From positions 660,290 to 724,289 of the forward strand of contig JADGDS010000001.1 in NCBI GenBank assembly GCA_016744775.1: a DNA stretch of 64,000 bases, read 5' to 3'. This DNA is from Candidatus Marithrix sp. (GTDB lineage: Bacteria; Pseudomonadota; Gammaproteobacteria; Beggiatoales; Beggiatoaceae). Below the pieces are notes generated by a model. It was not told where the DNA came from, searched no databases, and saw nothing but the letters and a program-made list of their open reading frames with translations. Below are positions 9,706 through 25,124 of the stretch, in pieces. How positions within the stretch are numbered: the stretch's first letter is position 1; every line of letters begins with the position of its first letter. A program made the translations under genes and the position numbers.

Positions 9706-11754
9706 ATGGAAAATTTTAAATCAGCCCTTAAAGCTTTTTCTAAAAAGAAGTTAGATATTCAACAGTTAGCAATTAAGCTTGACATTGTTTTACAAAAAAC
9801 ACCCGCTCGTGCGATGTATTTATTGTCTTATCTACAAGACTTAAAACGAGAAGGAAAAATTTCTTTAGATGATTATTTAGTTCTTAAATCTCGAATTGAG
9901 CCCTTTTATGATAAAACTGTATTAACAGAAGAGCAACCAGCATCAGTAAGTTATTCATCTTCTTCATCTGATACAGATGATAATAGCAATATTAATTCCG
10001 GGCAAACGATTCAAGATGATCATCAATTTCGCCTAGAAACAAAGTTATATTTTGATATTGGAGGTTCTGTCTGGCAAGCTACTGATATTGTTAGACAACA
10101 ATCTGAATACCCTGATAGTTTTGTTAGTATTAAATTTCTGGATGAGAAATTTAAAGAAATGTCAGGTGTATTAAAGGCATTGGTCTATGAATTTCATCGT
10201 TATCAAAGATTGAATCATATTAATATTGCCGCTGCATATCAATTAGCTAAGACGCAAGAACACTTTTTTTTAGTCACAGAATATTTTAAAGGCTTACCAT
10301 TAAAAACGTTTATTGAGAAACACCCAGATGGCATTTTAATGACAGATGCGAAGCCTATTATTATAGCTATGGCTAATGCGCTGGAATATGCTCATAATAA
10401 TAATGTTATGCACTCTGATTTTAATTCAGAAAATGTTTTATATGCGCCTGACAGTCAGCAAATTAAAGTTACTAATTTTGGTATTTCTTATGTTATTAAG
10501 CATCAAAAAGGATCAGGTTTGGATTTTGATCTTCGTGATGATGTTTATGGTTTAGCCTGTGTTACTTATGAGTTATTAAGTGGTAAAAGTGTTGATCAAG
10601 AATCTTTTCAACCCATAAAAAAATTAAATCGAAAACAAAATAAAGCATTACGACATGCTTTAGCTGAGAATGATAGAACCCTTACTGTTAGACAGTTTAT
10701 AGATGAATTCTTTTCTCAGAAACAGAAAAAATCTTCTTCAATGGGAGCGATGATTTTTGGTCTTATGGCTGTAACTCTTGCCGCTGCTGCTGGAAGTATT
10801 TTCCAACCAGTGAAAAAAATTCAAGAATATATGCTGGTTGCCCAAAAAACTTCGATTCCTTCTACGACTGAAAATATAATTTCAGTAGCAGAGCCAAAAC
10901 CAGAACCAATACCAATACCAACTTTACAAGCACGCACACCAGTTGTTAATGAAATTAATCAACAAGAAATTATTAATTTATTGCAAGAGTGCCGATCTTA
11001 TATTAATTCTGATCATCTTACCACTAGTATCCGTGGTGACAAATACACTGCTCTGGCTTGTTATCGACAAGTATTAGAAAATTCACCTAATGATAGTGAA
11101 GCTATTACCGGCTTAAAATACATAGAAAATCGTTATATAAAATGGACTGAAAAATATTTAGATCTACAAAATTTTAGAAAAGCTGGCAGATATATCAAAC
11201 GTTTAGAAGAAGTTAATCCACGTTCACTAGTTCTACTTGATTTAAAACAACGTTTAAAACAAGGTTTTTTAGTTGAAGAAGCGCGTAAAATTGAACAAGT
11301 ACGTAGCACAGAAGAAGCTATGAAACAAGCTCTTCAAAATAATACTGAGATTGATACTCCAGTTAATGTTGAAATTGATATTAGTTCTAAAGAATTATCA
11401 GAAGAAGAAAAACAGAAAGTTACTGAATTACTTACAAAATGTCAAAGATTCTTTAAAATCAAACATTGGACAGCTGGGCGTAATGGTAATGCTGTAGCTT
11501 GTTACAAAGATGTCTTGAAACTAGATTCAACTAATACTGATGCCTTAGATGGAGTTAAAACAATAGAAGCTAAATATTCAGCTTGGATAGAAGCTGCTAT
11601 CAAAACTAAAAGATTTAAAAAGGCAGAACGTTTATTAAGACGCATGAAAAAAATCAATTCTGCAACTGCAAAGAATTTGAAACAGCATCTGGCAGAGGAA
11701 CGTAAAAAATATTTAGAAGAAAAAGCTTTAACTGAAACTTTTGTTAATGAATAG
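9706..11754 (+). CDS. membrane-anchored Ser/Thr kinase-like protein (probable pseudokinase) with two C-terminal TPR/Sel1-like repeats
   Basis: Kinase-fold signatures are VSIK, LVTEY, HSDFNSEN (for HRDxKxxN) and NFG (for DFG). A TM segment (GAMIFGLMAVTLAAAAG) follows, then two homologous ~110-aa helical repeats. Confidence 0.7.
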   Translation: MENFKSALKAFSKKKLDIQQLAIKLDIVLQKTPARAMYLLSYLQDLKREGKISLDDYLVLKSRIEPFYDKTVLTEEQPASVSYSSSSSDTDDNSNINSGQTIQDDHQFRLETKLYFDIGGSVWQATDIVRQQSEYPDSFVSIKFLDEKFKEMSGVLKALVYEFHRYQRLNHINIAAAYQLAKTQEHFFLVTEYFKGLPLKTFIEKHPDGILMTDAKPIIIAMANALEYAHNNNVMHSDFNSENVLYAPDSQQIKVTNFGISYVIKHQKGSGLDFDLRDDVYGLACVTYELLSGKSVDQESFQPIKKLNRKQNKALRHALAENDRTLTVRQFIDEFFSQKQKKSSSMGAMIFGLMAVTLAAAAGSIFQPVKKIQEYMLVAQKTSIPSTTENIISVAEPKPEPIPIPTLQARTPVVNEINQQEIINLLQECRSYINSDHLTTSIRGDKYTALACYRQVLENSPNDSEAITGLKYIENRYIKWTEKYLDLQNFRKAGRYIKRLEEVNPRSLVLLDLKQRLKQGFLVEEARKIEQVRSTEEAMKQALQNNTEIDTPVNVEIDISSKELSEEEKQKVTELLTKCQRFFKIKHWTAGRNGNAVACYKDVLKLDSTNTDALDGVKTIEAKYSAWIEAAIKTKRFKKAERLLRRMKKINSATAKNLKQHLAEERKKYLEEKALTETFVNE

Positions 11755-12852
11755 ATGATTATTAATCGTTATTTATTTCGCGAAATACTAAATACTTTAT
11801 TAGCAATAGCTTTGCTATTAATCATGATTTATATAAGTCATCGTTTTATGAAGTATTTAGTACAAGCTTCGGTAGGTGATTTACCGGCTGAATTCATATT
11901 TCAGTTATTAGCTTTGCGTCTCTTAAGTGATTTAATGCTAATTTTACCATTAGCATTTTTTTTAGCATTATTATTATCTTTAGGGCGTTTATATAAGGAT
12001 AATGAAATCACAGCGATGGTGGCTTGTGGTATTCCATTACCATTTAAAAGTATTATTGGCTTTGGTGTAAGTTTTGGCTTTATCATAGCATTATTATCCT
12101 TAATATTAGCTCCTTGGGCTGAAGAAAAACGGGCAATCTTACAGGTACAATTAACGACATCGGCGGAAATGGGAGGAATTGCCGCTGGGCGTTTTAAGGA
12201 GTTTAGTCATGGCAATGGTATATTTTATATAGAAGAATTAGATACAGATAGCAAGGTGATGAAAAGGCTATTTGTGCAGGTGAATTTAGATAAGAAACGA
12301 GTGGTAATGATAGCAAAACGCGGTTATCAATTGGTAGAAGATGGTGAATTATTTTTAGTTTTAATTGATGGTAATCGTTATGAAACTGAAGTAGGCAAAT
12401 TAAACTATCTTATAACTAACTTTGCTGAACATAGAATTAGAATTCCAAAACGTCTTGACGCTATACCAAAAATTGCTAGAGTTGAGGCAATGCCTAGCTA
12501 TTTATTATTTTTGGCAGAAAAAAAGGAGTTACAAGCAGAATTACAATGGCGTTTATCTTTGCCATTATCCGTAATTCTATTAGCAGCATTAGCGGTGCCG
12601 CTATCTCATACTACGCCGCGTCAGGGGCAATATTCTAAAATCGTTTTAGGTATTCTGATTTATTTGATTTATAACAATTTGTTAAATGTTGCCAAAAAAT
12701 GGGTAGAACGCGGTGATGTTCCAAATTGGATTGGAATCTGGTGGGTGCATTTGGTATTGTTATTGATAATCATTATTTTATTTAATTATAGTCATATGAA
12801 AAATCTAGTTAAAAGGAATGTTAATTATGCGACAACTAATGTTAAACATTAA
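11755..12852 (+). CDS. lptF: LPS export ABC transporter permease LptF (C-terminal tail replaced by cassette sequence)
   Basis: 365 aa with a YjgP/YjgQ-type N-terminus (MIINRYLFREIL) and six TM segments. Confidence 0.8.
   Translation: MIINRYLFREILNTLLAIALLLIMIYISHRFMKYLVQASVGDLPAEFIFQLLALRLLSDLMLILPLAFFLALLLSLGRLYKDNEITAMVACGIPLPFKSIIGFGVSFGFIIALLSLILAPWAEEKRAILQVQLTTSAEMGGIAAGRFKEFSHGNGIFYIEELDTDSKVMKRLFVQVNLDKKRVVMIAKRGYQLVEDGELFLVLIDGNRYETEVGKLNYLITNFAEHRIRIPKRLDAIPKIARVEAMPSYLLFLAEKKELQAELQWRLSLPLSVILLAALAVPLSHTTPRQGQYSKIVLGILIYLIYNNLLNVAKKWVERGDVPNWIGIWWVHLVLLLIIIILFNYSHMKNLVKRNVNYATTNVKH
12698..12804. repeat. direct repeat copy A (3' end of lptF)
   Basis: 12733-12804 is identical over 72 nt to 13558-13629. 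The upstream part matches apart from a gap. Confidence 0.9.
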
Positions 12853-13117
12853 TGATCAAAAGTTAGAAGCAGCACTAAATTCAATTGCAAAAGAACAAAG
12901 TAAAGATGTTACGGATGTGATAATAAATGTTCTTCAACATTTTATTAAACAAAAATCACAAATTCCTGTAAAAAAATTAGATCCTTTCCGTCACTCAGTT
13001 CAAATCCAATATGACGTTGAAGAAGATTTAAATGAAGTAAAACCTTTTGCTGAGGTTAAAAACAGTGCAAAATTTGGTCAAGAATTAAGAGAACAATTAT
13101 GGCGGAGAAACTATTAA
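12818..13117 (+). CDS. putative antitoxin of a VapBC-like pair
   Basis: 99-aa ORF directly upstream of the PIN gene, with its stop overlapping the toxin ATG (TAATG). The true start may be the ATG at 12827, after an AGGA. Confidence 0.5.
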   Translation: MLIMRQLMLNINDQKLEAALNSIAKEQSKDVTDVIINVLQHFIKQKSQIPVKKLDPFRHSVQIQYDVEEDLNEVKPFAEVKNSAKFGQELREQLWRRNY

Positions 13118-13521
13118 TGGGTAAGCTTTTGATGTGTGATACCTGTGTAATTATTGACTCTATCAATGGAAATGATTTGTTGTTGTTTCAATTAAAACAA
13201 AATTCTTTTATTCTCTTTATTAATTCCATTATTGAAATGGAATTATTGCAAGGATCGCATGATAAAAAAGAATTAAGAAAAATTGAACAAGAGTTAAAAA
13301 TCTTTCGTAGATTGGAAATCAATCAAGATATTTTAGATACGGCAACCCATTTAGTAAAAAAATACTCATTGTCTCATAACTTGAAATTAGCAGATGCGCT
13401 TATTGGAGCTACTGCTCTGACTTACGATCTACCTCTTTACACATATAATACCCGTGATTTCAAGTTTATTCCTAATATTGTACTTTGGGATTCGTCAACC
13501 ACCGAAAGTGGTAATTTTTGA
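13117..13521 (+). CDS. PIN-domain ribonuclease toxin (VapC-like)
   Basis: Acidic PIN residues occur in order: CDTCVIID, ELLQG, ADALIGATAL, TYNTRDF. The start was chosen at the TAATG overlap; the track start is 13099. Confidence 0.7.
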   Translation: MGKLLMCDTCVIIDSINGNDLLLFQLKQNSFILFINSIIEMELLQGSHDKKELRKIEQELKIFRRLEINQDILDTATHLVKKYSLSHNLKLADALIGATALTYDLPLYTYNTRDFKFIPNIVLWDSSTTESGNF

Positions 13522-13539
13522 TTATAAATCAAGCTTATA

Positions 13540-13629
13540 AATTGGGTAGAACGTGGAGGAATCTGGTGGGTGCATTTGGTATTGTTATTGATAATCATTA
13601 TTTTATTTAATTATAGTCATATGAAAAAT
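13540..13629. repeat. direct repeat copy B (orphan lptF 3' end with its own stop)
   Basis: Reads WVERGGIWWVHLVLLLIIIILFNYSHMKNAIRGLVKNA* and is followed by a perfect hairpin terminator. Confidence 0.9.
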
Positions 13630-13659
13630 GCTATAAGAGGTTTAGTAAAAAATGCATAA

Positions 13660-13690
13660 GACCTGACAGGTTTTAAAAACCTGTCAGGTC
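13660..13690. terminator. perfect palindrome GACCTGACAGGTTTT-A-AAAACCTGTCAGGTC (repeat family 1)
   Basis: Perfect 15-bp arms. Related copies lie at 32946-32978 and 45187-45213, all at gene ends. Confidence 0.7.
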
Positions 13691-13835
13691 TGAAGTACTA
13701 GTAGTCTGTCAACTTTGTTTTGAGGGTACGACCCAAACTAAAGTTTGGACTCCTACTAGGTTCTCATCTTTTAATAAAGTCTAAGGATGCGAGGAATATT
13801 GTTAGTTTTCAATGGGAACAAGTTTAATTGTTGAT

Positions 13836-13880
13836 TTATCATCTATTTATCGGTGATTATAACCGATAAATAGATGATAA
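13836..13880. repeat. perfect 19-bp inverted repeat (TTATCATCTATTTATCGGT / ACCGATAAATAGATGATAA)
   Basis: Read directly; the loop is 7 nt. It sits exactly at the 5' truncation point of the ATPase fragment. Confidence 0.8.
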
Positions 13881-14239
13881 TTCAACGTAATATTGATTAT
13901 GCAGAAATTCAGCGTAAACCAGAATTATTTCCCTTAATACGTTATTTAGTTGACACTATTCCTGAGCAACATTACCTAATTTTAGGAAGTGCATCACGAG
14001 ATTTAATTCGGCAAAGTTCAGAAACTCTTGCTGGTAGAATTTCTTACTATACCCTGTTAGGTTTGAGAACAATGGATATTAATTCTGACCAAATAGAACA
14101 ATTATGGTTCACAGGAGGCTTACCTTCTTCATTTTTAGCCGCAGATGATGCTATAAGTTATCAATGGCGCGAAGATTACATTAGAACCTTTCTGGAACGG
14201 GATATTCCAGCAGAGACTTACAGGCTATTTTATTTATAA
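13874..14239 (+). pseudogene. internal fragment of a COG1373-type AAA ATPase (DUF4143 family)
   Basis: The 121 aa (LILGSASRDLI...LAGRI...WFTGGLPSSF...YIRTFLERDI) match the middle of the family represented intact at 58074-59387. Walker A and the C-terminal domain are missing. Confidence 0.6.
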
Positions 14240-16350
14240 TGCAAAACCAACAAATTCTCATCAACCACTGAAGGTGGTAAATTTTGATTAAAGCTAGGCA
14301 CTTTATTTTCTAATACCACTTTAATTGCATCATTTGGGCGATAATAGGTGGATTTATATTTGTTGATACTTGTAACTTTATTGTTTTTAAGTCTCACATT
14401 TATATATTTTTCACCTATAATTGAAGTATTATAATAACCCTTTCCTGTTAATGTTACCCATTGATTATTTTTAAAAGTTACCATTTGTGCTATTTCTTTA
14501 CCGCTTGCAGTTTCCCATAAGCGTATAGTGCCGTCAGCACTGGCTGATAATATCAATTTGCCATTCGGAGAAAAACTCACAGATTCAACAAAAGAAGAAT
14601 GCCCTTTAAAACTACGGATTAAACGTCCATTTTTGATATTCCATAATTTTATGCTTTGATCTCTACTGCCAGATAACGCCATTTTACCATCAGGAGAAAA
14701 TGCTACCTGATTGATAGGACTTATATGCAAATTAAAATTACGAATTAAACGCTTTTGCTTAATATTCCATAATTTCATAGTGTTATCAGAACCACCAGAT
14801 AAAGCCATTTTACCATCAGGAGAAAATGCTACACTATTTACACCATAACTATGATCCCGAAAAGTAGTAATTAAACCCCCTGTATAAAGATCCCAAAGTT
14901 TTATAGTATGATCATCACTTGCGGATAATGCTTTGGTTCCATCAGGAGAAAATTTAATGCTATTTATAGTTTTACGATGTCCATATAAAGTGTGAATTAT
15001 ATCTCCTGTCTTAACATTCCATAACATAATACTTTTATCTAAACTAGCTGATAAAATAGTTTTTCCGTTTGGAGCAAATGCAACGCTATTTACCCAAGAA
15101 GCATGAGCCTCGAAGCTACGTATTAAATAACCATCTTTAATTGACCATAATTTTATCGTGTCATCCCAACTTCCAGATAACGCCATTTTACCATCAGGAG
15201 AAAAGGCAACTGCTTTTATAGGTAAAAAATGTCCATAAAACTTTTTCACCAGATTACCACTTTCAAGAGACCATAGTCTTAGTGTTTTATCTATACCACC
15301 AGATAATGCAAACTTACCATTAGGGGAAAAGGCAATCGCATTAACTGCTTTGGTTTTACCTTTAAATTCCCGAATTAATCGTTCACTATTAACAGCCCAT
15401 AATTTAATCTTTTTATCCGAACCAGCAGATAAAACAGTTTTACCATTTGGTGAAAATGTAACGCTATTTACCCAAGATTCATGTCCATTAAAAGTGTGAA
15501 TTAATCGCCCACTATTCACATTCCATAATTTCATGGTTTCATCAACACTGCCAGATAAAACCGTTTTGCCATCAGGCGAAAAGGCTACACTATTTACCCA
15601 GAAACTGTGCCCTTTAAAGCTACGAATTAAACGTAATCGTTTAAGATCCCATAATTTAACTGTATTATCCCAAGCACCAGATACAGCCATATTACCATCA
15701 GGAGAAAATTTTATATCTTGTATATATGATGTATGTGCCTGAAAATTATGCAATAATTTTCGTCTATTAATATCCCATAATTTGATTGTTTGATCCCAAC
15801 TCGCAGATAAAGCTCTTTTTCCATTAGGGGAAAATGCAACCGCTGTAACATTCCACGAATGTCCATAAAATGTACGTATTACACGCCCTGTTTTAATATT
15901 CCATAATTTAATAGTTTTATCATAGCTGCCAGTTAATATAGTTTTTCCATTAGGAGAAAAAGCGACACTACTAACATGTTTTAAATGCCCCTTAAAAGTA
16001 CGAATTAAACTTCCATCATTCAAATTCCACAATTTAACTGTTCTATCTGAACTAGCAGATGCTAGTATTTTAGCATTAGGAGAAATAGCGATACTTTCTA
16101 TTGATTCACTATGTGCATGAATCTTACGAATCAAACGCGCTGTTTTCATATCCCATAATTTAATGGTTTGATCATCACTAGCTGATATTACTTGTTTGCC
16201 ATCTGGTGTAAAAATTACATGATTTATATCACCAACATGCCCTAATTGTAATAAGAGTTTATTTATTGCTTGGTCGGCATATAAATAATTTATTGAATTA
16301 ATTAGTATTAATATATGTATTATGCTTATGGAAATATTTTTATAAAACAT
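14230..16350 (-). CDS. secreted WD40-repeat protein (about 14 blades, two propellers) with a ~90-aa C-terminal domain
   Basis: 706 aa with a signal-like N-terminus. It has ~14 consecutive ~42-aa units of the form GH...V.SVAFSPDGK...SGS.D.TIKLWN. Confidence 0.85.
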   Translation of the reverse strand: MFYKNISISIIHILILINSINYLYADQAINKLLLQLGHVGDINHVIFTPDGKQVISASDDQTIKLWDMKTARLIRKIHAHSESIESIAISPNAKILASASSDRTVKLWNLNDGSLIRTFKGHLKHVSSVAFSPNGKTILTGSYDKTIKLWNIKTGRVIRTFYGHSWNVTAVAFSPNGKRALSASWDQTIKLWDINRRKLLHNFQAHTSYIQDIKFSPDGNMAVSGAWDNTVKLWDLKRLRLIRSFKGHSFWVNSVAFSPDGKTVLSGSVDETMKLWNVNSGRLIHTFNGHESWVNSVTFSPNGKTVLSAGSDKKIKLWAVNSERLIREFKGKTKAVNAIAFSPNGKFALSGGIDKTLRLWSLESGNLVKKFYGHFLPIKAVAFSPDGKMALSGSWDDTIKLWSIKDGYLIRSFEAHASWVNSVAFAPNGKTILSASLDKSIMLWNVKTGDIIHTLYGHRKTINSIKFSPDGTKALSASDDHTIKLWDLYTGGLITTFRDHSYGVNSVAFSPDGKMALSGGSDNTMKLWNIKQKRLIRNFNLHISPINQVAFSPDGKMALSGSRDQSIKLWNIKNGRLIRSFKGHSSFVESVSFSPNGKLILSASADGTIRLWETASGKEIAQMVTFKNNQWVTLTGKGYYNTSIIGEKYINVRLKNNKVTSINKYKSTYYRPNDAIKVVLENKVPSFNQNLPPSVVDENLLVLHYK

Positions 16351-16405
16351 TATTTTTTATCCATGTGTTGCTACATTTATAGAGGGATTCAACGTAGCAT
16401 GAAAA

Positions 16406-16648
16406 CTAATGTGAGTTTTGTATAAAATTTTGTAATACAAATGCTATTTGAGTATGTTTTAACTGAAGAGATTGTTTCACAGCTATTTGTGCTTGATCAA
16501 TTTTATTGTTTATTAATAGCTTAATAGCTTGATTACAAAGATATGCGGCTTGAGATTCAATTGTTAGCAACCTAGATAAATCAGTGCCACAACGATTACA
16601 GATAGAATTGTCTTTGATACATGCCTTACAAATTGGACATCGTTCCAT
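16406..16648 (-). CDS. zinc-ribbon protein with a helical tail
   Basis: 80 aa with CPICKAC...CNRCG (CxxC-N9-CxxC). Its start overlaps the Hsp70 stop by 1 nt. Confidence 0.55.
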   Translation of the reverse strand: MERCPICKACIKDNSICNRCGTDLSRLLTIESQAAYLCNQAIKLLINNKIDQAQIAVKQSLQLKHTQIAFVLQNFIQNSH

Positions 16649-18330
16649 TATGATTCCAAATAATAAAGAATATCAGATAATTCATCCATTGATTCTTTTA
16701 AATCATTTTTATCTTTAATGGCTTCAATTAAATTTATAATATCCTCACTATCCTCAGAGGAAGCTTGATCTAACATACGTTCTGCTTTTTCTATTAAAGC
16801 TTTGGATTGTACAATCGTATGATGATTATCATCATCACCAAATATTGTGTCAATACGTTTTTTAGCTTCTGCAATTTCGTTTGCTTCAAAACGAGAAATC
16901 GCATTATCTATTATTATAGATTTTTCTAAGTTAGTATTTTTTTCTACTGCTGATACATTTAAAATTCCATTTAAATCTAATTCCAACTTCAGTAAAATTG
17001 GATTACCTTGAGGCACTTGACTTAAACCTTCAACCATGAATTCACCAATTTGAATATTATTCAGAGCATCAACATCTTCTCCTTGAAATATTCGTACTTC
17101 TACCGCTTCTTGATTATCCCGCATGGTATAGAAAACATCCGTTTTCATCATCGGTAGAGAACTATTTTTTTGAATAATTGGCACATACATATAAGGATAT
17201 AATTCTCCATTTAATTTCCCTATCGCGCTTGTGCCATAAGTATAAGGAGTAATATCAACTAATACAGATGCTGCTACTTTATGCCCTGCAATTATAGCAG
17301 CTTGAATTGCTGCACCAGTAGCAACACATAAATCTGGATCAACTTCTAATCGTGGTTGTTGTTTGAATTCTGCTTCTAAACGTTTACTGACTAATGGTGT
17401 GCGAGTGCTACCTCCAACTAATAAAATTTCATCAATATCAGACGCAACTAAATTGGCACCATTGAGTGCAATATGTACAGCTTCTAAGGTTTCATCTATA
17501 TAGTCAGCAATCATTTCTTCATAATCATCTCGTGATAATTCGAGTGATAAATGTATTGGAGTGCCATTTTGTTGTTCCAGATATTCTTCTTCAATTGTCA
17601 CAAAAGGTTGATTAGATAAAGCGCGTTTTGCTGTTTCAGCGGCACGATTAATACGTGCCATCGCCTTAGATGATTGTGGTTTTATATGATCAATAATATA
17701 ATCGATGATCTTTTGATCAAAATCATCACCACCTAATTTATTATTACCATGACTAGCTAAGACTTCTACTACATCTTCTTCCAAACTAACTACCGAAACG
17801 TCAAAAGTACCACCACCTAAGTCATAAACAAGAATTTTTTTATTGGTTTTATGATTAGCTTCATAAGACAATGCTGCCGCTGTTGGCTCGTTAATCATTC
17901 TTACAACTTCTAAGCCTGCAATTTCACCAGCTTCACGAGTAGCTTGACGTTGAGCATCTGAAAAATAAGCTGGTACGGTAATAACGGCTTTATTTACTGG
18001 TTCATTTAAATATGATTCTGCAATTGCTTTGAGCCGCTTTAGAATCATCGCGGAAATTTCTTGCGGAGTATAAGATTGTTCAGCTAGTTCTAATTTTATT
18101 TCTTCTCCCATATGACGCTTAACTGATTTAATAGTGCGTTCTGGGTATAAAACATATTGATTTTTAGCTGGTGTACCTACTAATATTTCATTGTTATCAC
18201 TCATCCCTACAAATGATGGAACAATTTTATTGCCAGCTTCTTCAATTACGATGATTTTGCCATCTTGAACTACTGCTATTTCAGAATTCGTAGTGCCTAA
18301 ATCAATACCTAGGATAATTTCATTATTCAT
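16648..18330 (-). CDS. non-canonical short Hsp70 family ATPase (HscC-like length)
   Basis: 560 aa with the Hsp70 signatures GIDLGTTNS, DLGGGTFDVS and VGGSTRTPLV. The substrate-binding/lid region is shortened relative to DnaK. Confidence 0.85.
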   Translation of the reverse strand: MNNEIILGIDLGTTNSEIAVVQDGKIIVIEEAGNKIVPSFVGMSDNNEILVGTPAKNQYVLYPERTIKSVKRHMGEEIKLELAEQSYTPQEISAMILKRLKAIAESYLNEPVNKAVITVPAYFSDAQRQATREAGEIAGLEVVRMINEPTAAALSYEANHKTNKKILVYDLGGGTFDVSVVSLEEDVVEVLASHGNNKLGGDDFDQKIIDYIIDHIKPQSSKAMARINRAAETAKRALSNQPFVTIEEEYLEQQNGTPIHLSLELSRDDYEEMIADYIDETLEAVHIALNGANLVASDIDEILLVGGSTRTPLVSKRLEAEFKQQPRLEVDPDLCVATGAAIQAAIIAGHKVAASVLVDITPYTYGTSAIGKLNGELYPYMYVPIIQKNSSLPMMKTDVFYTMRDNQEAVEVRIFQGEDVDALNNIQIGEFMVEGLSQVPQGNPILLKLELDLNGILNVSAVEKNTNLEKSIIIDNAISRFEANEIAEAKKRIDTIFGDDDNHHTIVQSKALIEKAERMLDQASSEDSEDIINLIEAIKDKNDLKESMDELSDILYYLES

Positions 18331-18893
18331 ATTTTATTAACTTTAACTTCTGCAAGACGTAAAATTTCATTTTCCCACATGAAACCTTTACGTAATTCTC
18401 CTGTAACAATAGCATTATCTATTGTTGTTTGTTTATCTACTTCAACTGCTCGCATCAAATGTGGATCAAGAATTTTATTTAACACATCTATAGGCAATAC
18501 TTTATGCTTAGCCAATTGCTGCTCAAAGCGTCGTAATGTCATTGCTTGACCTTCTTTTATACTTTCTATAAGCGCAAATTCTCGTTTATAAAACCATTTC
18601 CAAAATGAAGGTTTATAATTATTTAAACTAAGCATAGCTGCATGTAAACGATCATAAACTTCTAAGAAATCTAATAAGAGATGTCGTATCAATTCACGAT
18701 CTTGATTATTATCCTTGAACATATCCAAAGCTTTTTTGACTTGACGCGATTCTAATTTTACTTCATTACGTAATGCCGCTAATTCAGTAAATAAGGCAAA
18801 TAAATCTGTTGTATTTGTATCCTCAATTTCATCAACAGTTTGTAAATAAGTTTCAAATTGTGTAAGCAGTTCTACTTTTTTACTATCATCCAT
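18327..18893 (-). CDS. GrpE-like nucleotide exchange factor
   Basis: 188 aa. A coiled N-terminus is followed by a GrpE-type C-terminus (LDPHLMRAVE...VTGELRKGFMWENEILRLAEVKV). It overlaps the Hsp70 start by 4 nt. Confidence 0.65.
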   Translation of the reverse strand: MDDSKKVELLTQFETYLQTVDEIEDTNTTDLFALFTELAALRNEVKLESRQVKKALDMFKDNNQDRELIRHLLLDFLEVYDRLHAAMLSLNNYKPSFWKWFYKREFALIESIKEGQAMTLRRFEQQLAKHKVLPIDVLNKILDPHLMRAVEVDKQTTIDNAIVTGELRKGFMWENEILRLAEVKVNKI

Positions 18894-19182
18894 GAGTTTC
18901 TAATAAGACTTTTGTTAATAATTTTTCATTAGTGGCTTGTAATTTATCGACTGATAAGCTATCTTCTAAAAAAGCAAATATATTGGGCATATCCTTATTA
19001 AATAATTGATATTTTATACGTTTTTTTTCGGTACTGATTAAATCAAAAGCAGAACGAATTTTTTTAAATTCATCTGGAGCTTGCTCAGGGCTATAAATTC
19101 TGACCTTTTTTAAATAAGCTTTTTTGATGTCATCATCACTTGCATCTGTAGATACATCGAGAATATCAAAGGCTGTTATCAT
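18886..19182 (-). CDS. J-like domain protein lacking the HPD motif
   Basis: 98 aa. AFDILDVSTDASDDDIKKAYLKKVRIYSPEQAPDEFKKIRSAFDLIS aligns to the J-domain helices I-III, but SPE replaces HPD. Confidence 0.65.
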   Translation of the reverse strand: MITAFDILDVSTDASDDDIKKAYLKKVRIYSPEQAPDEFKKIRSAFDLISTEKKRIKYQLFNKDMPNIFAFLEDSLSVDKLQATNEKLLTKVLLETHG

Positions 19183-20785
19183 ATTTTTTCATAAAATTAA
19201 TAATCATCATTGCTGTGCGCTTATCTCCTTGATTGTTTGCAATTTCAATTGCTTTATCAATTATGTGAAATTTATTTCCATCTAAATTAAAAATTTTACC
19301 ATGAATTTCTCCATAAACTTGATAAAACATAAATGCTGGGTGATTTAACCAACGTTTATTGGCTTCAGTTGCAAATTTTGTTAGCAAATTATAATTTGCT
19401 AAATTTTTAAAGCATTCACATAAACTCAACATTTCGTTTTGAGAAAAATCCAGTTTAGCCATTTTTATAATAGTAGCTTTGATTTCCTCCACACTTTCGC
19501 TAAGACAATCTACCTTTTCTGCCAAATAAGCATTAATTATATTAAGTAATTTTAAAGCATTATTTTTAGTAGGGGTAATATTGGCTTTAGAAAGTTTCAA
19601 ATCAAGAAACTGACGCTTACTTTCAACAATGACTCTAAATCTATCACAAATACCATCTTTTTCAAGCAGCATCTTAATAGCTGTTGCTTGATTATCGCTA
19701 GTGTGTAAGGCTAATAAAGCTTGATTGATTTGCACAATATCATTAGGCTTATTAACTTTTTCTAATTCCTTACTAGCTAAAGTATATTTCTTGGTTTTAA
19801 TTAATTTATGAGCATGAGATATATGAGATGCGACAGCACAATCACGCGCTTTTGCATTAATTGGATCTATTTTTAATAAGGTTTGAGCATATTTTACGGC
19901 TTTTTTAAAGGCTTTTTTGCGTGTAGCAGATGCCATACCAAGTAACAAAATATCAGGATCTTTGGGTAAATGTTTCAGTGCAGTATCAACCCATTTATGA
20001 TATGACTTTAATTCACCCTTATGTTCATACCATTTGGCTAATTTGAGATAAGTGTTTTTATCTGCTGGATCATATAATAAACTTGCTTCTAAATCACTGA
20101 TTATATTTTCTTTATTGTGAGCTAATTCAACTAAATGACGATAAATAAAAGCGATTTTTAATTCATTATTTTGTTCCTGTTTCAGATATTTGATACATTT
20201 ACGCCAATACTTATCAGCTTCATCTTGTTCAGAGCTAAGTGCTAAAATACGATTTTTTTCAAATGATGATAATGATCCAAATTCGCGTTCATAAATTTTA
20301 ATTCCTGTAGGATAATGAGGCAATAAGGCTAGGCAAAACTGACGACTTTTTTCTTTACCGAAAAATTGCCAATTTTTTATCACTAGTTCTAATAAGACTT
20401 TATTGCTTTGTGGTTTTATAACTTTATTAATCATGTTAATTTGCTTATCATTCCAGCCTTTCAAGCTAGCAATCAAAGCCAATTCATCAGAATTAGGCTT
20501 GCTAGAAATCAATGATTCAATTGAATTTGTTGATAAACTAATAACCGTAGCTAATTTCTTATATGGAGAATCTTCTGGAATTTTATTAAAAAGTTGCAAA
20601 CTAGCATCAGTTTCAATTAAAATTAATCCCTTAATAATAGTAGTGCAATCTCTATAAGGCGAGCGAAAAGGAATTTGTTTTAAAGCGGCTTTACAGGCTT
20701 CATAGTTTCTTTGTTTATAGTTTGACAGAGCGTCTTTAAGCAAAATCAAGTCTTGTGTTTTAGAATGTTTTTTCTTTTTACGCAT
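19166..20785 (-). CDS. TPR-like helical repeat protein, first gene of the Hsp70 operon
   Basis: 539 aa, all-helical, with several TPR-like units (e.g. YLKLAKWYEHKGELKSYHKWVDTALKHLPKDPD). It overlaps the J-like gene by 17 nt. Confidence 0.5.
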   Translation of the reverse strand: MRKKKKHSKTQDLILLKDALSNYKQRNYEACKAALKQIPFRSPYRDCTTIIKGLILIETDASLQLFNKIPEDSPYKKLATVISLSTNSIESLISSKPNSDELALIASLKGWNDKQINMINKVIKPQSNKVLLELVIKNWQFFGKEKSRQFCLALLPHYPTGIKIYEREFGSLSSFEKNRILALSSEQDEADKYWRKCIKYLKQEQNNELKIAFIYRHLVELAHNKENIISDLEASLLYDPADKNTYLKLAKWYEHKGELKSYHKWVDTALKHLPKDPDILLLGMASATRKKAFKKAVKYAQTLLKIDPINAKARDCAVASHISHAHKLIKTKKYTLASKELEKVNKPNDIVQINQALLALHTSDNQATAIKMLLEKDGICDRFRVIVESKRQFLDLKLSKANITPTKNNALKLLNIINAYLAEKVDCLSESVEEIKATIIKMAKLDFSQNEMLSLCECFKNLANYNLLTKFATEANKRWLNHPAFMFYQVYGEIHGKIFNLDGNKFHIIDKAIEIANNQGDKRTAMMIINFMKKYDNSL

Positions 20786-20843
20786 AGGATGTTATTATAT
20801 AGCTTTATTAAAAATAGTATAGTATAAGGAGATATAAAGAAAT

Positions 20844-24221: not shown

Positions 24222-25124
24222 ATTTTTAAAAACCTTTCAATTATTATATTTTTAGCCGCTGTGATTAGTGGTTGTAATGATGATGATGGTGCTGGTGATT
24301 CGCCGGTTATTGATTTAATAAAATCTCAATCAGAGAAAAATTCACAGAAAATAGCTGATTTACAAGTTCAGTTATCTGAGCAATTAGAAAAAATTCAAAC
24401 AAATACTTTTGTTGCTGGTAAAGTCTTTCGCGATAAGTTAAAGGATGGTAGCTTTGCTCCAGAGATGGTTATGATTGCTGGTGGTTCTTTTAGAATGGGT
24501 GATATTCAAGGTGGTGGCAGGGATAATGAACAGGCAGTGCATTATGTTTTGGTTGATAGGTTTGCTATGGGGAAATATGAAGTTACCTTTGCTGAATATG
24601 ATAAGTTTGCTGAAGCTACTGGTAGAGAAAAGCCTAGTGATAGTGGTTGGGGGCGCGGTAATCGTCCAGTAATTAATGTTTCTTGGAATGATGCTACTGC
24701 CTATACAAAATGGCTTAGTGATCAAACTGGTAAGCAATATCGTTTGCCTACTGAAGCTGAGTGGGAATATGCAGCTAGAGCTGGTACGGATACTAAGTAT
24801 TGGTGGGGTAATGAGATTGATGGCAGTAAAGCAAATTATAACCAGAATCTTGGTAAAACTTCTTCAGTGGGAAATTATAAAGCTAATAAATTTGGTTTAT
24901 ATGATACTTCAGGAAATGTATGGGAATGGACATGTTCTGAATTTGAAGATAAATATAATGGTAAAGAAAAACAATGTGTTACGAATGCAAGCAATTTATC
25001 CTTTCGTGGCGGCTCGTGGAACAGCGGCGCGAGGGTTGTGCGCTCGGCTAACCGCTACTGGAACACGCCGACTGACCGCAGCCTCTACGTGGGCTTTCGG
25101 GTGTTAAGACTCGTAACCCTTTAA
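24222..25124 (+). CDS. lipoprotein with a formylglycine-generating-enzyme / C-type-lectin fold (SUMF1-like) domain; candidate DGR target
   Basis: FGE-sulfatase family motifs (MVMIAGGSFRMG, INVSWNDA, RLPTEAEWEYAAR, GNVWEWT, RGGSW...GFRV). The track start is GTG 24261, which would cut a lipoprotein signal. The in-frame upstream sequence after AAGGAG reads (ATT)FKNLSIIIFLAAVISGC. Confidence 0.75.
   Translation: MFKNLSIIIFLAAVISGCNDDDGAGDSPVIDLIKSQSEKNSQKIADLQVQLSEQLEKIQTNTFVAGKVFRDKLKDGSFAPEMVMIAGGSFRMGDIQGGGRDNEQAVHYVLVDRFAMGKYEVTFAEYDKFAEATGREKPSDSGWGRGNRPVINVSWNDATAYTKWLSDQTGKQYRLPTEAEWEYAARAGTDTKYWWGNEIDGSKANYNQNLGKTSSVGNYKANKFGLYDTSGNVWEWTCSEFEDKYNGKEKQCVTNASNLSFRGGSWNSGARVVRSANRYWNTPTDRSLYVGFRVLRLVTL
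25005..25103 (+). other. candidate DGR variable region (VR) at the gene 3' end
   Basis: By hand count about 67/99 nt are G+C and about 14/99 are A, against AT-rich flanks. It encodes RGGSWNSGARVVRSANRYWNTPTDRSLYVGFRV, and the variable-position codons are mostly NNC. Confidence 0.55.

What the first reader, a model, noticed from the sequence alone, without database searches (positions are those of the whole stretch)
14230..20785. Six-gene operon coupling a non-canonical Hsp70/GrpE/J-like chaperone set to TPR, zinc-ribbon and secreted 14-blade WD40 proteins
On the minus strand, five genes overlap start-to-stop by 1-17 nt: a 539-aa TPR-like protein, a 98-aa J-like protein, a 188-aa GrpE-like protein, a 560-aa short Hsp70 and an 80-aa CxxC-CxxC zinc-ribbon protein. 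A 706-aa WD40 protein with a signal-like N-terminus follows after 55 nt. This is not the housekeeping dnaK-dnaJ-grpE arrangement. The Hsp70 lacks most of the lid, the J protein lacks HPD, and the partners are repeat scaffolds typical of signalling or conflict systems. I know of no characterised function for such a module.
Basis: partly seen in the sequence, partly recalled or inferred. Interest (0 to 1): 0.7.

Follow-up and report, generated by a model that had tools for sequence, protein, structure and literature searches.

The report
Self-contained specialised Hsp70 chaperone cassette
The region encodes a conserved five-gene set that forms a second, private Hsp70 chaperone machine (a scaffold protein, an unusual helper that lacks the normal activating motif, its own nucleotide-exchange factor, a short Hsp70 and a small zinc protein); its function is unstudied, and the WD40 gene behind it is a local add-on, not part of the conserved set.

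Summary
The six ORFs, their overlaps (17, 8, 4 and 1 nt) and the 55-nt gap are exactly as described. Five of them form a conserved, colinear cassette: a TPR-like solenoid, a J-like protein, a GrpE-like protein, a short Hsp70 and a Zn-ribbon/TPR-like protein. The cassette is complete in 57 of 59 genome loci with enough flank. These loci span Beggiatoaceae, Competibacteraceae, Methylococcales, Accumulibacter and others, and their flanks differ by lineage. Two distant high-GC metagenome variants also exist. The WD40 gene follows only in the window and in Marithrix, so "six-gene operon" overstates it.

The Hsp70 fails the DnaK and HscA equivalog cut-offs. It shares the HscC-type insertions and deletions, but it keeps the GrpE loop and has its own exchange factor. 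Its lid is shortened, not mostly missing. The J-like protein carries [P/S]P[E/D] in place of HPD across the whole family, and it is closest to E. coli DjlB/DjlC, which have HPE.

Nothing points to a conflict system: no effector, no PADLOC match, and strong purifying selection.

Best reading: an orthogonal, client-dedicated Hsp70 machine with an unknown client. It is a new variant of a known kind. I found no description of it in the literature I searched.

The parts
19166..20785 (-). TPR-like alpha-solenoid protein (539 aa), first gene of the cassette. This is a shortened copy. Family members are about 800 aa. The window copy keeps the basic N-terminus MRKKKK but lacks about 140 aa of N-terminal TPRs and the acidic and basic C-terminal tail.
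   Evidence: 130 homologues, unnamed or called 'TPR repeat protein'. Alignment A1 shows the deletion, the near-invariant FRSPYRD loop and the KAFKKA/DPIN motifs. AF2 pLDDT is 90 and the fold is all helical. Foldseek finds only generic TPR scaffolds such as Ctr9, BBS4, OGT and LbcA, at E about 1e-5.
18886..19182 (-). J-like protein (98 aa): a J-domain fold plus a C-terminal extension of about 35 aa. The HPD position reads SPE (PPE or PPD in the family).
   Evidence: Pfam DnaJ scores 42.9 bits against a cut-off of 27.8. Family alignment: PPE in 31, PPD in 22 and SPE in 3 of 66 sequences, never HPD; the other 10 escaped the regex used, but the printed alignment shows no HPD in any of the 66. It aligns best with the N-terminal J-domains of E. 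coli DjlB/DjlC (HPE, same short loop).
18327..18893 (-). GrpE-like nucleotide-exchange factor (188 aa). It has a deletion of about 23 aa in the long helix relative to family members, which are about 215 aa.
   Evidence: Pfam GrpE scores 72.9 bits against a cut-off of 25.8, covering profile positions 23-165 of 165. It falls far below all NCBIfam GrpE equivalog cut-offs. Aligned with E. coli GrpE.
16648..18330 (-). Short Hsp70 (560 aa) with a full NBD, linker, SBD-beta and a shortened lid, and no disordered tail. The C-terminus ...LSDILYYLES is conserved.
   Evidence: Pfam HSP70 1e-143. NCBIfam DnaK scores 521.6 against a cut-off of 648, and HscA 403 against 708. Catalytic and allosteric motifs are intact. 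It shares HscC-type indels but retains the GrpE-signature loop. The C-terminal motif is conserved in all family members. NCBI names these proteins only 'Hsp70 family protein'.
16406..16648 (-). Small Zn-ribbon protein (80 aa): MERCPxC...CxRC followed by a three-helix TPR-like unit. Its start overlaps the Hsp70 stop by 1 nt.
   Evidence: Family alignment with invariant C4, C7, C17 and C20. 379 homologues, nearly all 'hypothetical' and none with a Pfam domain. AF2 pLDDT is 87 with helices 25-46, 50-63 and 67-79. Foldseek finds only non-significant TPR matches. The median Hsp70-ZnR gap is -1 nt in 47 loci.
14230..16350 (-). WD40 protein (706 aa) with 14 repeats, a signal-peptide-like N-terminus and an unassigned C-terminal domain of about 85 aa. 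It is a lineage-specific gene downstream of the cassette and is probably co-transcribed with it.
   Evidence: 14 WD40 stretches. It is present after ZnR only in the window and in L001 (Marithrix) out of 80 loci. dN/dS is 0.23 against Marithrix. No terminator-like site lies in the 55-nt gap. The C-terminal 100 aa has no Pfam hit.
20786..20843 (.). 58-nt divergent spacer between the cassette and petA (Rieske protein, + strand). It must hold or abut the cassette promoter.
   Evidence: Sequence read. petA/petB/petC ORFs. The same divergent arrangement is seen in Beggiatoaceae loci.

Best explanation
The region encodes an autonomous, vertically maintained, specialised Hsp70 chaperone machine that runs in parallel to the housekeeping DnaK system.

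Shown:
- Five genes (TPR-like scaffold, J-like, GrpE-like, short Hsp70, Zn-ribbon/TPR-like) travel together in fixed order.
- The Hsp70 keeps every ATPase and allostery motif, and it keeps the GrpE-contact loop.
- The exchange factor has a complete GrpE domain.
- The J-like protein has a J-domain fold with [P/S]P[E/D] instead of HPD.
- The Hsp70 substrate-binding domain carries the HscC-type loop insertion at the substrate arch.

Inferred:
- The Hsp70 cycles ATP with its private exchange factor.
- The small J-like protein docks at the conserved NBD surface (R167, N170 and T173 equivalents are kept). It either stimulates hydrolysis weakly, in a manner tuned to this Hsp70, or it holds the Hsp70 on the scaffold through its C-terminal extension.
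- The large TPR solenoid is the platform, or the client itself. It may present one dedicated substrate, and its conserved poly-lysine N-terminus, FRSPYRD loop and basic C-terminal tail may be the handles the HscC-like binding domain grips.
- The Zn-ribbon/TPR-like protein, translationally coupled to the Hsp70, acts as a stoichiometric partner (an escort or tail binder).

The logic is that of HscA/HscB or HscC/DjlB/DjlC: one Hsp70 dedicated to one task, not general folding. The client is unknown. The WD40 protein is a later addition in the Marithrix-like lineage and is probably exported.
For: Cassette conservation:
- tblastn of the six window proteins against 80 genome loci finds TPR-J-GrpE-Hsp70-ZnR in the same order on the same strand.
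- All-vs-all clustering finds only these five families shared across loci, and the flanks differ by lineage.
- 57 of 59 loci with enough flank are complete: 53 by tblastn, plus 4 in which the J gene is found only by ORF clustering.
- The same cassette appears in further places on record and in two distant high-GC variants. These have Hsp70 at 43-45% identity and J-likes reading FPPERE and YPPERE.

Selection:
- Identity to the window is 55-77% for the Hsp70 and 24-59% for the partners.
- dN/dS against Marithrix is 0.17-0.52.

Paralogue status:
- The Hsp70 scores below the DnaK and HscA equivalog cut-offs.
- It has the NBD lobe-I deletion, the 8-aa L1,2 insertion and the helix-B deletion, as in HscC. 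The loop that HscA and HscC delete (the GrpE signature, Mayer 2021, PMC8215388) is present.

J-like protein:
- The family motif is shown.
- The DjlB/DjlC alignment and HMM give E about 1e-12.

Tight coupling: overlaps of 1-17 nt in the window, and a median Hsp70-ZnR gap of -1 nt across 47 loci.
Against: - No client was identified.
- No protein-protein interaction was tested, because co-folding was not available.
- A J-domain without His at the HPD position is expected from DnaJ work to be unable to stimulate ATPase activity, so the cycle may work differently from what I propose.
- Whether the source genome also has a canonical dnaK could not be checked. There is none in the 64-kb window.
- In the window lineage, all five cassette proteins are shorter than the family norm. 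The TPR gene has the most relaxed dN/dS, 0.52. This could mean partial loss of function.
- Two Beggiatoaceae loci have the cassette split after GrpE.
Confidence: 0.6

Rival explanations
1. It is a conflict or defence (or signalling) system. The Hsp70 would act as an NTP-driven switch or threshold device, and the TPR and WD40 repeat proteins would act as sensors of an invader. This would resemble the chaperone-based systems of multicellular bacteria described by Kaur et al. 2020.
For: Kaur et al. (PMC7159879) describe GAP1-N2 GTPase systems that include HSP70, GrpE and DnaJ- or TPR-fused proteins. The hosts here are large or filamentous bacteria, which are rich in such systems. The window has a PIN toxin, an AAA_14 fragment and an FGE-sulfatase protein nearby.
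Against: No PADLOC family matches any of the five core proteins; the only hit, for the Hsp70, is a weak partial one at E 8e-4. No GTPase, FNIII, effector or other sixth conserved gene exists in 80 loci. The cassette is single-copy and colinear, and it is highly conserved (Hsp70 55-77% identical across orders). Defence genes usually diversify and move. In Beggiatoaceae it sits stably beside petABC-sspB. WD40 is not conserved with it.
Confidence: 0.1
2. It is simply a second, stress-inducible general chaperone set (a DnaK/DnaJ/GrpE duplicate) with broad clients. It would have been retained for extra folding capacity in large-genome bacteria.
For: The full Hsp70 cycle components are present. DnaK duplication correlates with proteome complexity (PMC11019930). 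Catalytic and allosteric motifs are intact.
Against: The J-like protein has no client-binding domains (98-120 aa) and no HPD. The substrate arch of the Hsp70 is remodelled by the L1,2 insertion. The obligatory TPR and Zn-ribbon partners have no counterpart in general systems. Sigma-32 or CIRCE motifs upstream (3 of 72 loci) are not above background (20 of 360 control windows).
Confidence: 0.15
3. All six genes, including the WD40 gene, form one functional unit in this organism. The Hsp70 set would chaperone or hold the 14-blade WD40 protein before export, making WD40 the client.
For: The WD40 gene is on the same strand, 55 nt downstream, with no terminator-like site between. The arrangement and the signal-like N-terminus are kept in Marithrix, with dN/dS 0.23. 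A large double propeller is a plausible difficult folding or export substrate.
Against: 78 of 80 loci lack WD40 after the cassette. WD40 therefore cannot be the family's client; at most it is a lineage-specific one. WD40 proteins are very abundant in these genomes, so adjacency may be chance.
Confidence: 0.1

Closest known systems
E. coli HscC (Hsc62) with DjlB/DjlC (the 'third' bacterial Hsp70 system)
   Same: Both are short Hsp70s (550-590 aa). Both have the NBD lobe-I deletion (DnaK 76-101), the insertion in SBD-beta loop L1,2, the 9-aa helix-B deletion and no long disordered tail (features as listed in PMC8215388). The J-domain starts at residue 1, has the same short helix II-III loop, and carries Glu at the third position of the triad (HPE against PPE/SPE). 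TPR-class repeat genes sit in the locus: Sel1 proteins YbeQ and YbeT in E. coli.
   Different: Identity to HscC is only 34%, against 37% to DnaK. The GrpE-signature loop is retained and a dedicated GrpE-like gene is present, whereas HscC is described as GrpE-independent. The J-like protein is 98-120 aa with Pro or Ser for His, whereas DjlB and DjlC are 475-483 aa. The partner is a solenoid of about 800 aa plus a Zn-ribbon protein, and there is no DUF1266. In a crude NJ tree the family is a separate tight clade, and HscC branches further out.
DnaK-DnaJ-GrpE housekeeping system
   Same: It has the same three-component cycle logic. All Hsp70 ATPase and allostery motifs and the J-binding NBD residues are conserved. 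The GrpE domain is complete.
   Different: It fails the DnaK equivalog cut-offs. It has no HPD, and the J protein has no Zn-finger or C-terminal client-binding domains. It has no C-terminal tail. It carries extra obligatory TPR and Zn-ribbon genes. It has no heat-shock promoter signal.
HscA-HscB-IscU (Fe-S cluster Hsp70)
   Same: This is the model for a single-client Hsp70 with a small dedicated J protein encoded beside it.
   Different: It scores below the HscA cut-off. No isc genes are adjacent. HscA lacks the GrpE loop and needs no exchange factor, whereas here an exchange factor is part of the cassette.
GAP1-N2 GTPase-centric conflict systems with HSP70, GrpE and DnaJ/TPR-FNIII proteins (Kaur et al. 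2020, PMC7159879)
   Same: Both co-occur an Hsp70 paralogue, GrpE, a J domain and TPR repeats in one neighbourhood.
   Different: No GTPase, FNIII or effector gene is conserved here. The published systems are in Actinobacteria and Firmicutes, whereas this one is in Proteobacteria and two unidentified high-GC lineages.
Myxococcus xanthus SglK (MxDnaK2) with GrpS (MXAN_6671/6672)
   Same: Both are a tail-less DnaK paralogue encoded next to its own GrpE homologue (PMC11019930).
   Different: No TPR, J-like or Zn-ribbon partners are reported for SglK in the text read.
Eukaryotic Hsp70-TPR co-chaperone pairs (Hop, CHIP, Tom70 reading the EEVD tail)
   Same: An Hsp70 with a conserved extreme C-terminus is genetically tied to TPR proteins.
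   Different: This is analogy only. The conserved ...D-h-h-[FY]-[FY]-h-E end aligns with the last lid helix of DnaK. It may therefore be structural rather than a docking peptide. No binding was tested.

Membership tests
DnaK (NCBIfam equivalogs NF001413, TIGR02350) | Whole-protein score at or above the curated cut-off | tested here: not met
   521.6 against 648, and 509.9 against 822.55.
DnaK | About 640 aa with a C-terminal disordered tail and an unmodified SBD-beta L1,2 loop | tested here: not met
   The protein is 560 aa, ends at the last lid helix, and has an 8-aa insertion in L1,2.
HscA (TIGR01991) | Score at or above the cut-off, N-terminal extension, and isc gene context | tested here: not met
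   403.4 against 708.55. There is no N-terminal extension and there are no isc genes in the flanks.
HscC-type Hsp70 | 550-580 aa; deletion of DnaK 76-101; insertion of 4-8 aa in L1,2; deletion of about 9 aa in helix B (features as in PMC8215388) | tested here: met
   All four are seen in the alignment with E. coli DnaK, HscA and HscC (feature list).
HscC-type Hsp70 | GrpE-signature loop absent and GrpE-independent | tested here: not met
   The loop is retained where HscA and HscC have a gap. A GrpE-like gene is in the cassette in every complete locus.
HscC-type Hsp70 | Groups with E. coli HscC in a phylogeny | tested here: inconclusive
   34% identity to HscC against 37% to DnaK. The NJ tree is star-like. 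The family sits in a wide radiation of short Hsp70s, with HscC branching outside it but nearer than HscA or DnaK. No curated HscC model appeared among the NCBIfam matches.
J-domain protein | J-domain fold (Pfam PF00226 above the gathering score) | tested here: met
   42.9 bits against 27.8, residues 4-58.
J-domain protein | HPD tripeptide between helices II and III | tested here: not met
   SPE in the window. Among 66 family members PPE occurs 31 times, PPD 22 and SPE 3, and the remaining 10 were not matched by the regex used. No HPD is visible in any of the 66 sequences of the printed alignment. The distant variants also read PPE.
GrpE | Pfam PF01025 above the gathering score over the full domain | tested here: met
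   72.9 bits against 25.8, profile positions 23-165 of 165. All NCBIfam housekeeping GrpE equivalogs are far below their cut-offs, so it is a divergent paralogue.
Known anti-phage defence systems (PADLOC-DB 2.0) | Match of the core proteins to a defence-system model | tested here: not met
   No family matches TPR, J, GrpE or ZnR. The Hsp70 has one weak partial hit (E 8e-4). WD40 matches only a generic repeat model.
GAP1-N2 GTPase / HSP70 conflict system (Kaur 2020) | Linked GAP1-N2 GTPase and FNIII-repeat protein | tested here: not met
   Clustering of all flank ORFs in 80 loci gives no conserved family beyond the five.
Operon (single transcription unit) | One transcript covering all genes | not testable with these tools
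   The evidence is indirect only: overlaps of 1-17 nt, and no terminator-like site within or after the cassette up to the WD40 gene.

The most novel reading that the evidence does not exclude
This is a fourth, orthogonal class of bacterial Hsp70 machine, alongside DnaK, HscA and HscC. It is spread beyond the Gammaproteobacteria. Its J-like partner works through a conserved Pro-Pro-Glu/Asp triad instead of HPD. TPR proteins (the large solenoid and the Zn-ribbon/TPR protein) read the Hsp70's conserved C-terminal ...D-h-h-[FY]-[FY]-h-E end. That would make it a prokaryotic counterpart of the eukaryotic Hsp70-EEVD/TPR co-chaperone network, dedicated to one still unknown cellular structure or client.
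Probability: 0.2. Interest if true: 0.8.

Novelty: new variant of a known kind. Interest (0 to 1): 0.55.

Why it matters
A 2026 review (PMC13580251) calls bacterial Hsp70 paralogues other than DnaK and HscA 'largely unexplored dark matter'. This cassette is a clean, compact case. Hsp70, exchange factor, J-like protein and two TPR-class partners are always encoded together, so partner specificity can be studied with five purified proteins.

It raises two sharp questions:
- How does a J-domain with Pro (or Ser) instead of the catalytic His act on an Hsp70 whose J-binding surface is conserved?
- Why does an HscC-like Hsp70 keep a private GrpE, when HscA and HscC have dispensed with exchange factors?

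The cassette occurs in cultivable, genetically tractable methanotrophs (Methylotuvimicrobium, Methylomonas). A knockout phenotype and the client are therefore within reach.

Tried and rejected
- PADLOC scan of all six proteins gave nothing usable.
- Foldseek of the TPR model found only generic TPR scaffolds and gave no functional lead.
- Foldseek of the Zn-ribbon model gave no significant match (E >= 1). The CHIP, Hip and Tom71 TPR hits are what any short TPR would give, so I do not count them as evidence.
- I first read the conserved Hsp70 C-terminus as an EEVD-like docking peptide. I downgraded this after the alignment showed it corresponds to the last lid helix of DnaK and after finding it widely shared among unrelated short Hsp70s.
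Only 3 of 80 loci were informative.
- The search for sigma-32, CIRCE and sigma-54 motifs upstream of the cassette showed no enrichment.
- Literature searches for the gene combination found only Kaur et al. 2020, which describes a different system.
- Co-folding of the proteins was not possible with the structure tool, which takes single chains only and allows two jobs.
- The adjacency of a second, distant Hsp70-like gene plus DUF2760 in some Methylobacter loci was considered as a functional link. I set it aside because it occurs in only 4-5 loci.

Full report
**Observation**

The six minus-strand ORFs are at the stated coordinates.

| Gene | Coordinates | Length |
|---|---|---|
| TPR-like | 19166-20785 | 539 aa |
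| J-like | 18886-19182 | 98 aa |
| GrpE-like | 18327-18893 | 188 aa |
| Hsp70 | 16648-18330 | 560 aa |
| Zn-ribbon | 16406-16648 | 80 aa |
| WD40 | 14230-16350 | 706 aa |

- Successive genes overlap by 17, 8, 4 and 1 nt, and WD40 follows after 55 nt.
- Profile scans confirm the domain calls: Pfam DnaJ 5e-11, GrpE 3e-20, HSP70 1e-143, and 14 WD40 repeats.
- The 539-aa protein gives only sub-threshold TPR hits. An AlphaFold model built on 21 homologues is confidently all-helical (pLDDT 90). Foldseek matches generic TPR solenoids at E about 1e-5.
- The consensus scan finds no terminator-like site inside the cassette or between the Zn-ribbon and WD40 genes.
- The window is AT-rich (about 33% GC). 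Homologues and record titles place it among Marithrix-like Beggiatoaceae.

**What is conserved**

- A search with the TPR-like protein found 130 relatives.
- A scan of one genome per species found 159 loci, and 80 were fetched.
- tblastn of the six window proteins against these loci shows TPR, J, GrpE, Hsp70 and Zn-ribbon genes in that order, on one strand, in nearly every locus.
- All-against-all clustering of every flank ORF finds only these five families shared across lineages. Everything else changes with the taxon.
- Of 59 loci with enough downstream sequence, 53 are complete by tblastn. Four more have a J gene that only ORF clustering detects. Two Beggiatoaceae loci stop after GrpE. A 74%-identical Hsp70 from one of those two organisms is on record elsewhere, so in that genome the cassette appears to be split rather than lost.
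- Carriers are Beggiatoaceae, Competibacteraceae, many Methylococcales, Accumulibacter (a betaproteobacterium), Sedimenticola and Granulosicoccaceae.
- Two further places on record show the same cassette beside unrelated neighbours.
- The WD40 gene follows the cassette only in the window and in Marithrix L001. The conserved unit is therefore five genes, and WD40 is a lineage-specific addition.
- All six genes are under purifying selection between the window and Marithrix:

| Gene | dN/dS vs Marithrix |
|---|---|
| TPR | 0.52 |
| J | 0.29 |
| GrpE | 0.17 |
| Hsp70 | 0.20 |
| ZnR | 0.33 |
| WD40 | 0.23 |

**The Hsp70**

- It scores below the curated cut-offs for DnaK (521.6 against 648) and HscA (403 against 708). 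NCBI names its relatives only 'Hsp70 family protein'.
- I aligned it with E. coli DnaK, HscA and HscC, taken from the MG1655 record.
- It keeps the phosphate-binding loops, K70, E171, the DLGGGTFD motif, the R151/D148 allosteric residues, the R167/N170/T173 J-contact surface and a hydrophobic linker.
- It shares four features with HscC: the deletion of DnaK residues 76-101, an insertion in SBD-beta loop L1,2 (8 aa here), a 9-residue deletion in lid helix B, and the absence of a long disordered tail. These are the features Mayer's review lists as HscC hallmarks (PMC8215388).
- Unlike HscA and HscC, it retains the loop that review calls the GrpE signature. This fits the presence of a GrpE-like gene in the cassette.
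- The lid is present. It is about 15 residues shorter than DnaK's. The window lineage has lost another 20 or so residues relative to the 578-590-aa family norm. 'Lacks most of the lid' is therefore not correct.
- The last residues, L-[AS]-D-[IL]-h-[YF]-Y-L-[ED]-x, are conserved in every family member.
- An exhaustive search of 1.8 billion representatives shows the nearest non-family proteins at 42-51% identity. They are mostly 565-625 aa, and many have a similar ending.
- A neighbour-joining tree places the family as a tight clade within this radiation, with HscC, HscA and DnaK progressively further out. The tree is star-like and should not be over-read.

**The partners**

*J-like protein*
- The J-like family never has HPD. 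The triad reads PPE (31), PPD (22) or SPE (3, including the window) in the 56 of 66 members that the regex matched, and the printed alignment of all 66 shows no HPD.
- It aligns from residue 1 with the J-domains of E. coli DjlB and DjlC, the HscC co-chaperones. These carry HPE and the same short helix II-III loop. A family HMM hits them at about 1e-12.
- HPE variants make up about 1% of J-domain proteins and include DjlB and DjlC (PMC10410713). I found no discussion of a PPE class.

*GrpE-like protein*
- It covers the whole Pfam domain but is far from the housekeeping equivalogs.

*Zn-ribbon protein*
- It has invariant C4, C7, C17 and C20, followed by three helices (AF2 pLDDT 87).
- Its homologues are nearly all 'hypothetical' and none has a Pfam domain. 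In methanotrophs it carries a second helical repeat.
- Its start is within a few nucleotides of the Hsp70 stop in 46 of 47 loci.

*TPR-like protein*
- In most genomes it is about 800 aa. It has a basic N-terminus (MxKKKK), a near-invariant FRSPYRD segment, an acidic disordered stretch and a basic C-terminal tail. In the model, the FRSPYRD segment lies in a loop between helices.
- The window copy has lost about 140 N-terminal residues and the tail but has kept MRKKKK.

**Wider reach**

It also recovered two high-GC loci, L089 (61% GC) and L090 (64% GC). Both have a TPR protein (876 and 752 aa), a small J-like protein reading FPPERE or YPPERE, a long GrpE-like protein and a short Hsp70 that is 45% or 43% identical to the window. 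L089 also has a Zn-ribbon/TPR protein. The L089 TPR protein again has a basic N-terminus, an RSPY motif, an acidic stretch and a basic tail. The module, including the PPE triad, is therefore older and wider than the gammaproteobacterial family. I could not assign these two loci to a taxon.

**What it most likely does**

The shown facts are these:
- a complete Hsp70 cycle kit;
- a substrate-binding domain remodelled at the arch;
- a minimal J-like protein with no client-binding domain;
- two obligatory TPR-class partners;
- strict co-inheritance;
- strong purifying selection.

These facts fit a client-dedicated Hsp70 machine on the HscA/HscB or HscC/DjlB/DjlC model. It would run beside the housekeeping system.

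I infer, without direct test, the following:
- The GrpE-like protein is the private exchange factor.
- The J-like protein docks on the conserved NBD surface. It either tunes hydrolysis or tethers the Hsp70 to the scaffold through its C-terminal extension.
- The TPR solenoid is the platform or the client.
- Kluck et al., as summarised by Mayer, found that positive charge dominates peptide binding to HscC. The conserved poly-lysine terminus of the TPR protein is therefore a candidate handle for this HscC-like binding domain.
- The Zn-ribbon/TPR protein is a stoichiometric partner of the Hsp70.

The client is unknown.

**Rivals**

- *Conflict system.* This reading has little support. PADLOC gives no match. 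No effector, GTPase or other conserved neighbour exists. Conservation is high, and the location is stable next to petABC-sspB in Beggiatoaceae. The HSP70/GrpE/DnaJ/TPR theme of Kaur et al. is tied to GAP1-N2 GTPases in Actinobacteria and Firmicutes, and none is present here.
- *General stress chaperone.* This is unlikely given the minimal J-like protein, the altered substrate arch and the absence of sigma-32 or CIRCE enrichment upstream (3 of 72 loci against 20 of 360 control windows).
- *WD40 as client.* This can hold at most for this lineage.

**Limits**

- No interaction, activity or transcript was tested.
- The presence of a canonical dnaK in the source genome was not checked. There is none in the window. 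dnaK is reported in 98.9% of bacteria (PMC11019930).
- The signal peptide of the WD40 protein is judged by eye.
- The tree is crude.

**Novelty**

Specialised bacterial Hsp70 systems are known, and the individual domains are ordinary. This particular five-gene module was not described in any paper I could find. Its distinguishing features are a PPE-type J-like protein, a private GrpE, an HscC-like Hsp70, a TPR solenoid and a Zn-ribbon/TPR protein. I rate it a new variant of a known kind. It is of moderate interest and is directly testable in cultivable methanotrophs.

Noticed in passing
window 16406-20785, compared with L002-L080: In the window lineage every cassette protein is shorter than the family norm: TPR 539 against about 800 aa, GrpE 188 against about 215, Hsp70 560 against about 583, and ZnR 80 against 84-146. 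The cause is internal deletions that keep the reading frames. Marithrix shares the GrpE, Hsp70 and ZnR shortening, but its TPR gene has lost less (666 aa). This looks like lineage-wide streamlining.
   Followed up: partly
L031 5813-8784 (also L032, L034, L057): In several Methylobacter loci, a second and very distant Hsp70-like protein (640-646 aa, 23-30% identical to DnaK) lies just upstream of the cassette on the same strand. It is preceded by a membrane-anchored DUF2760 protein (Pfam 5e-54).
   Followed up: partly
L089 2888-9106 and L090 3328-8752: These are distant high-GC versions of the cassette. Their GrpE-like proteins are much longer (329 and 347 aa). L090 has a 569-aa unknown protein where the Zn-ribbon gene would be. 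L090 also has a WD40 protein about 5 kb further downstream, cut by the locus end.
   Followed up: partly
L011 and L017: Two Beggiatoaceae MAG loci carry TPR-J-GrpE with no Hsp70 or ZnR after them. A 74%-identical Hsp70 from one of these organisms, Parabeggiatoa sp. nov. 3 (L017), is on record elsewhere. The cassette there is either split or the contig is mis-assembled.
   Followed up: partly
window 12818-14239: Directly downstream of the WD40 gene lie a truncated AAA_14 ATPase fragment (121 aa, 13874-14239) and a PIN-domain toxin (13099-13521). The toxin has an overlapping 99-aa upstream ORF that is probably its antitoxin. Together these look like a small variable patch.
   Followed up: partly
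window 13659-13691: A 33-nt perfect palindrome (15-bp stem, 3-nt loop) followed by a T-rich run. It is the only strong terminator-like hairpin in the 8 kb scanned.
   Followed up: no
window 9706-11754: A Ser/Thr protein kinase (Pfam Pkinase 5e-22) with a predicted membrane segment and C-terminal TPR-like repeats. Its stop abuts the start of the lptF-like gene at 11755.
   Followed up: no
window 24261-25124: An FGE-sulfatase-domain protein (Pfam 2e-55) with a lipoprotein-like N-terminus. This domain is often found in the conflict systems of multicellular bacteria, but here it is not linked to the cassette.
   Followed up: no
L081 (E. coli MG1655 676000-684000): The E. coli hscC locus is itself a repeat-scaffold neighbourhood. 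Two Sel1-repeat genes (ybeQ, ybeT) and two DUF1266 genes (ybeR, ybeU) alternate with djlB and djlC next to hscC. This parallels the Hsp70-plus-TPR theme seen here.
   Followed up: partly
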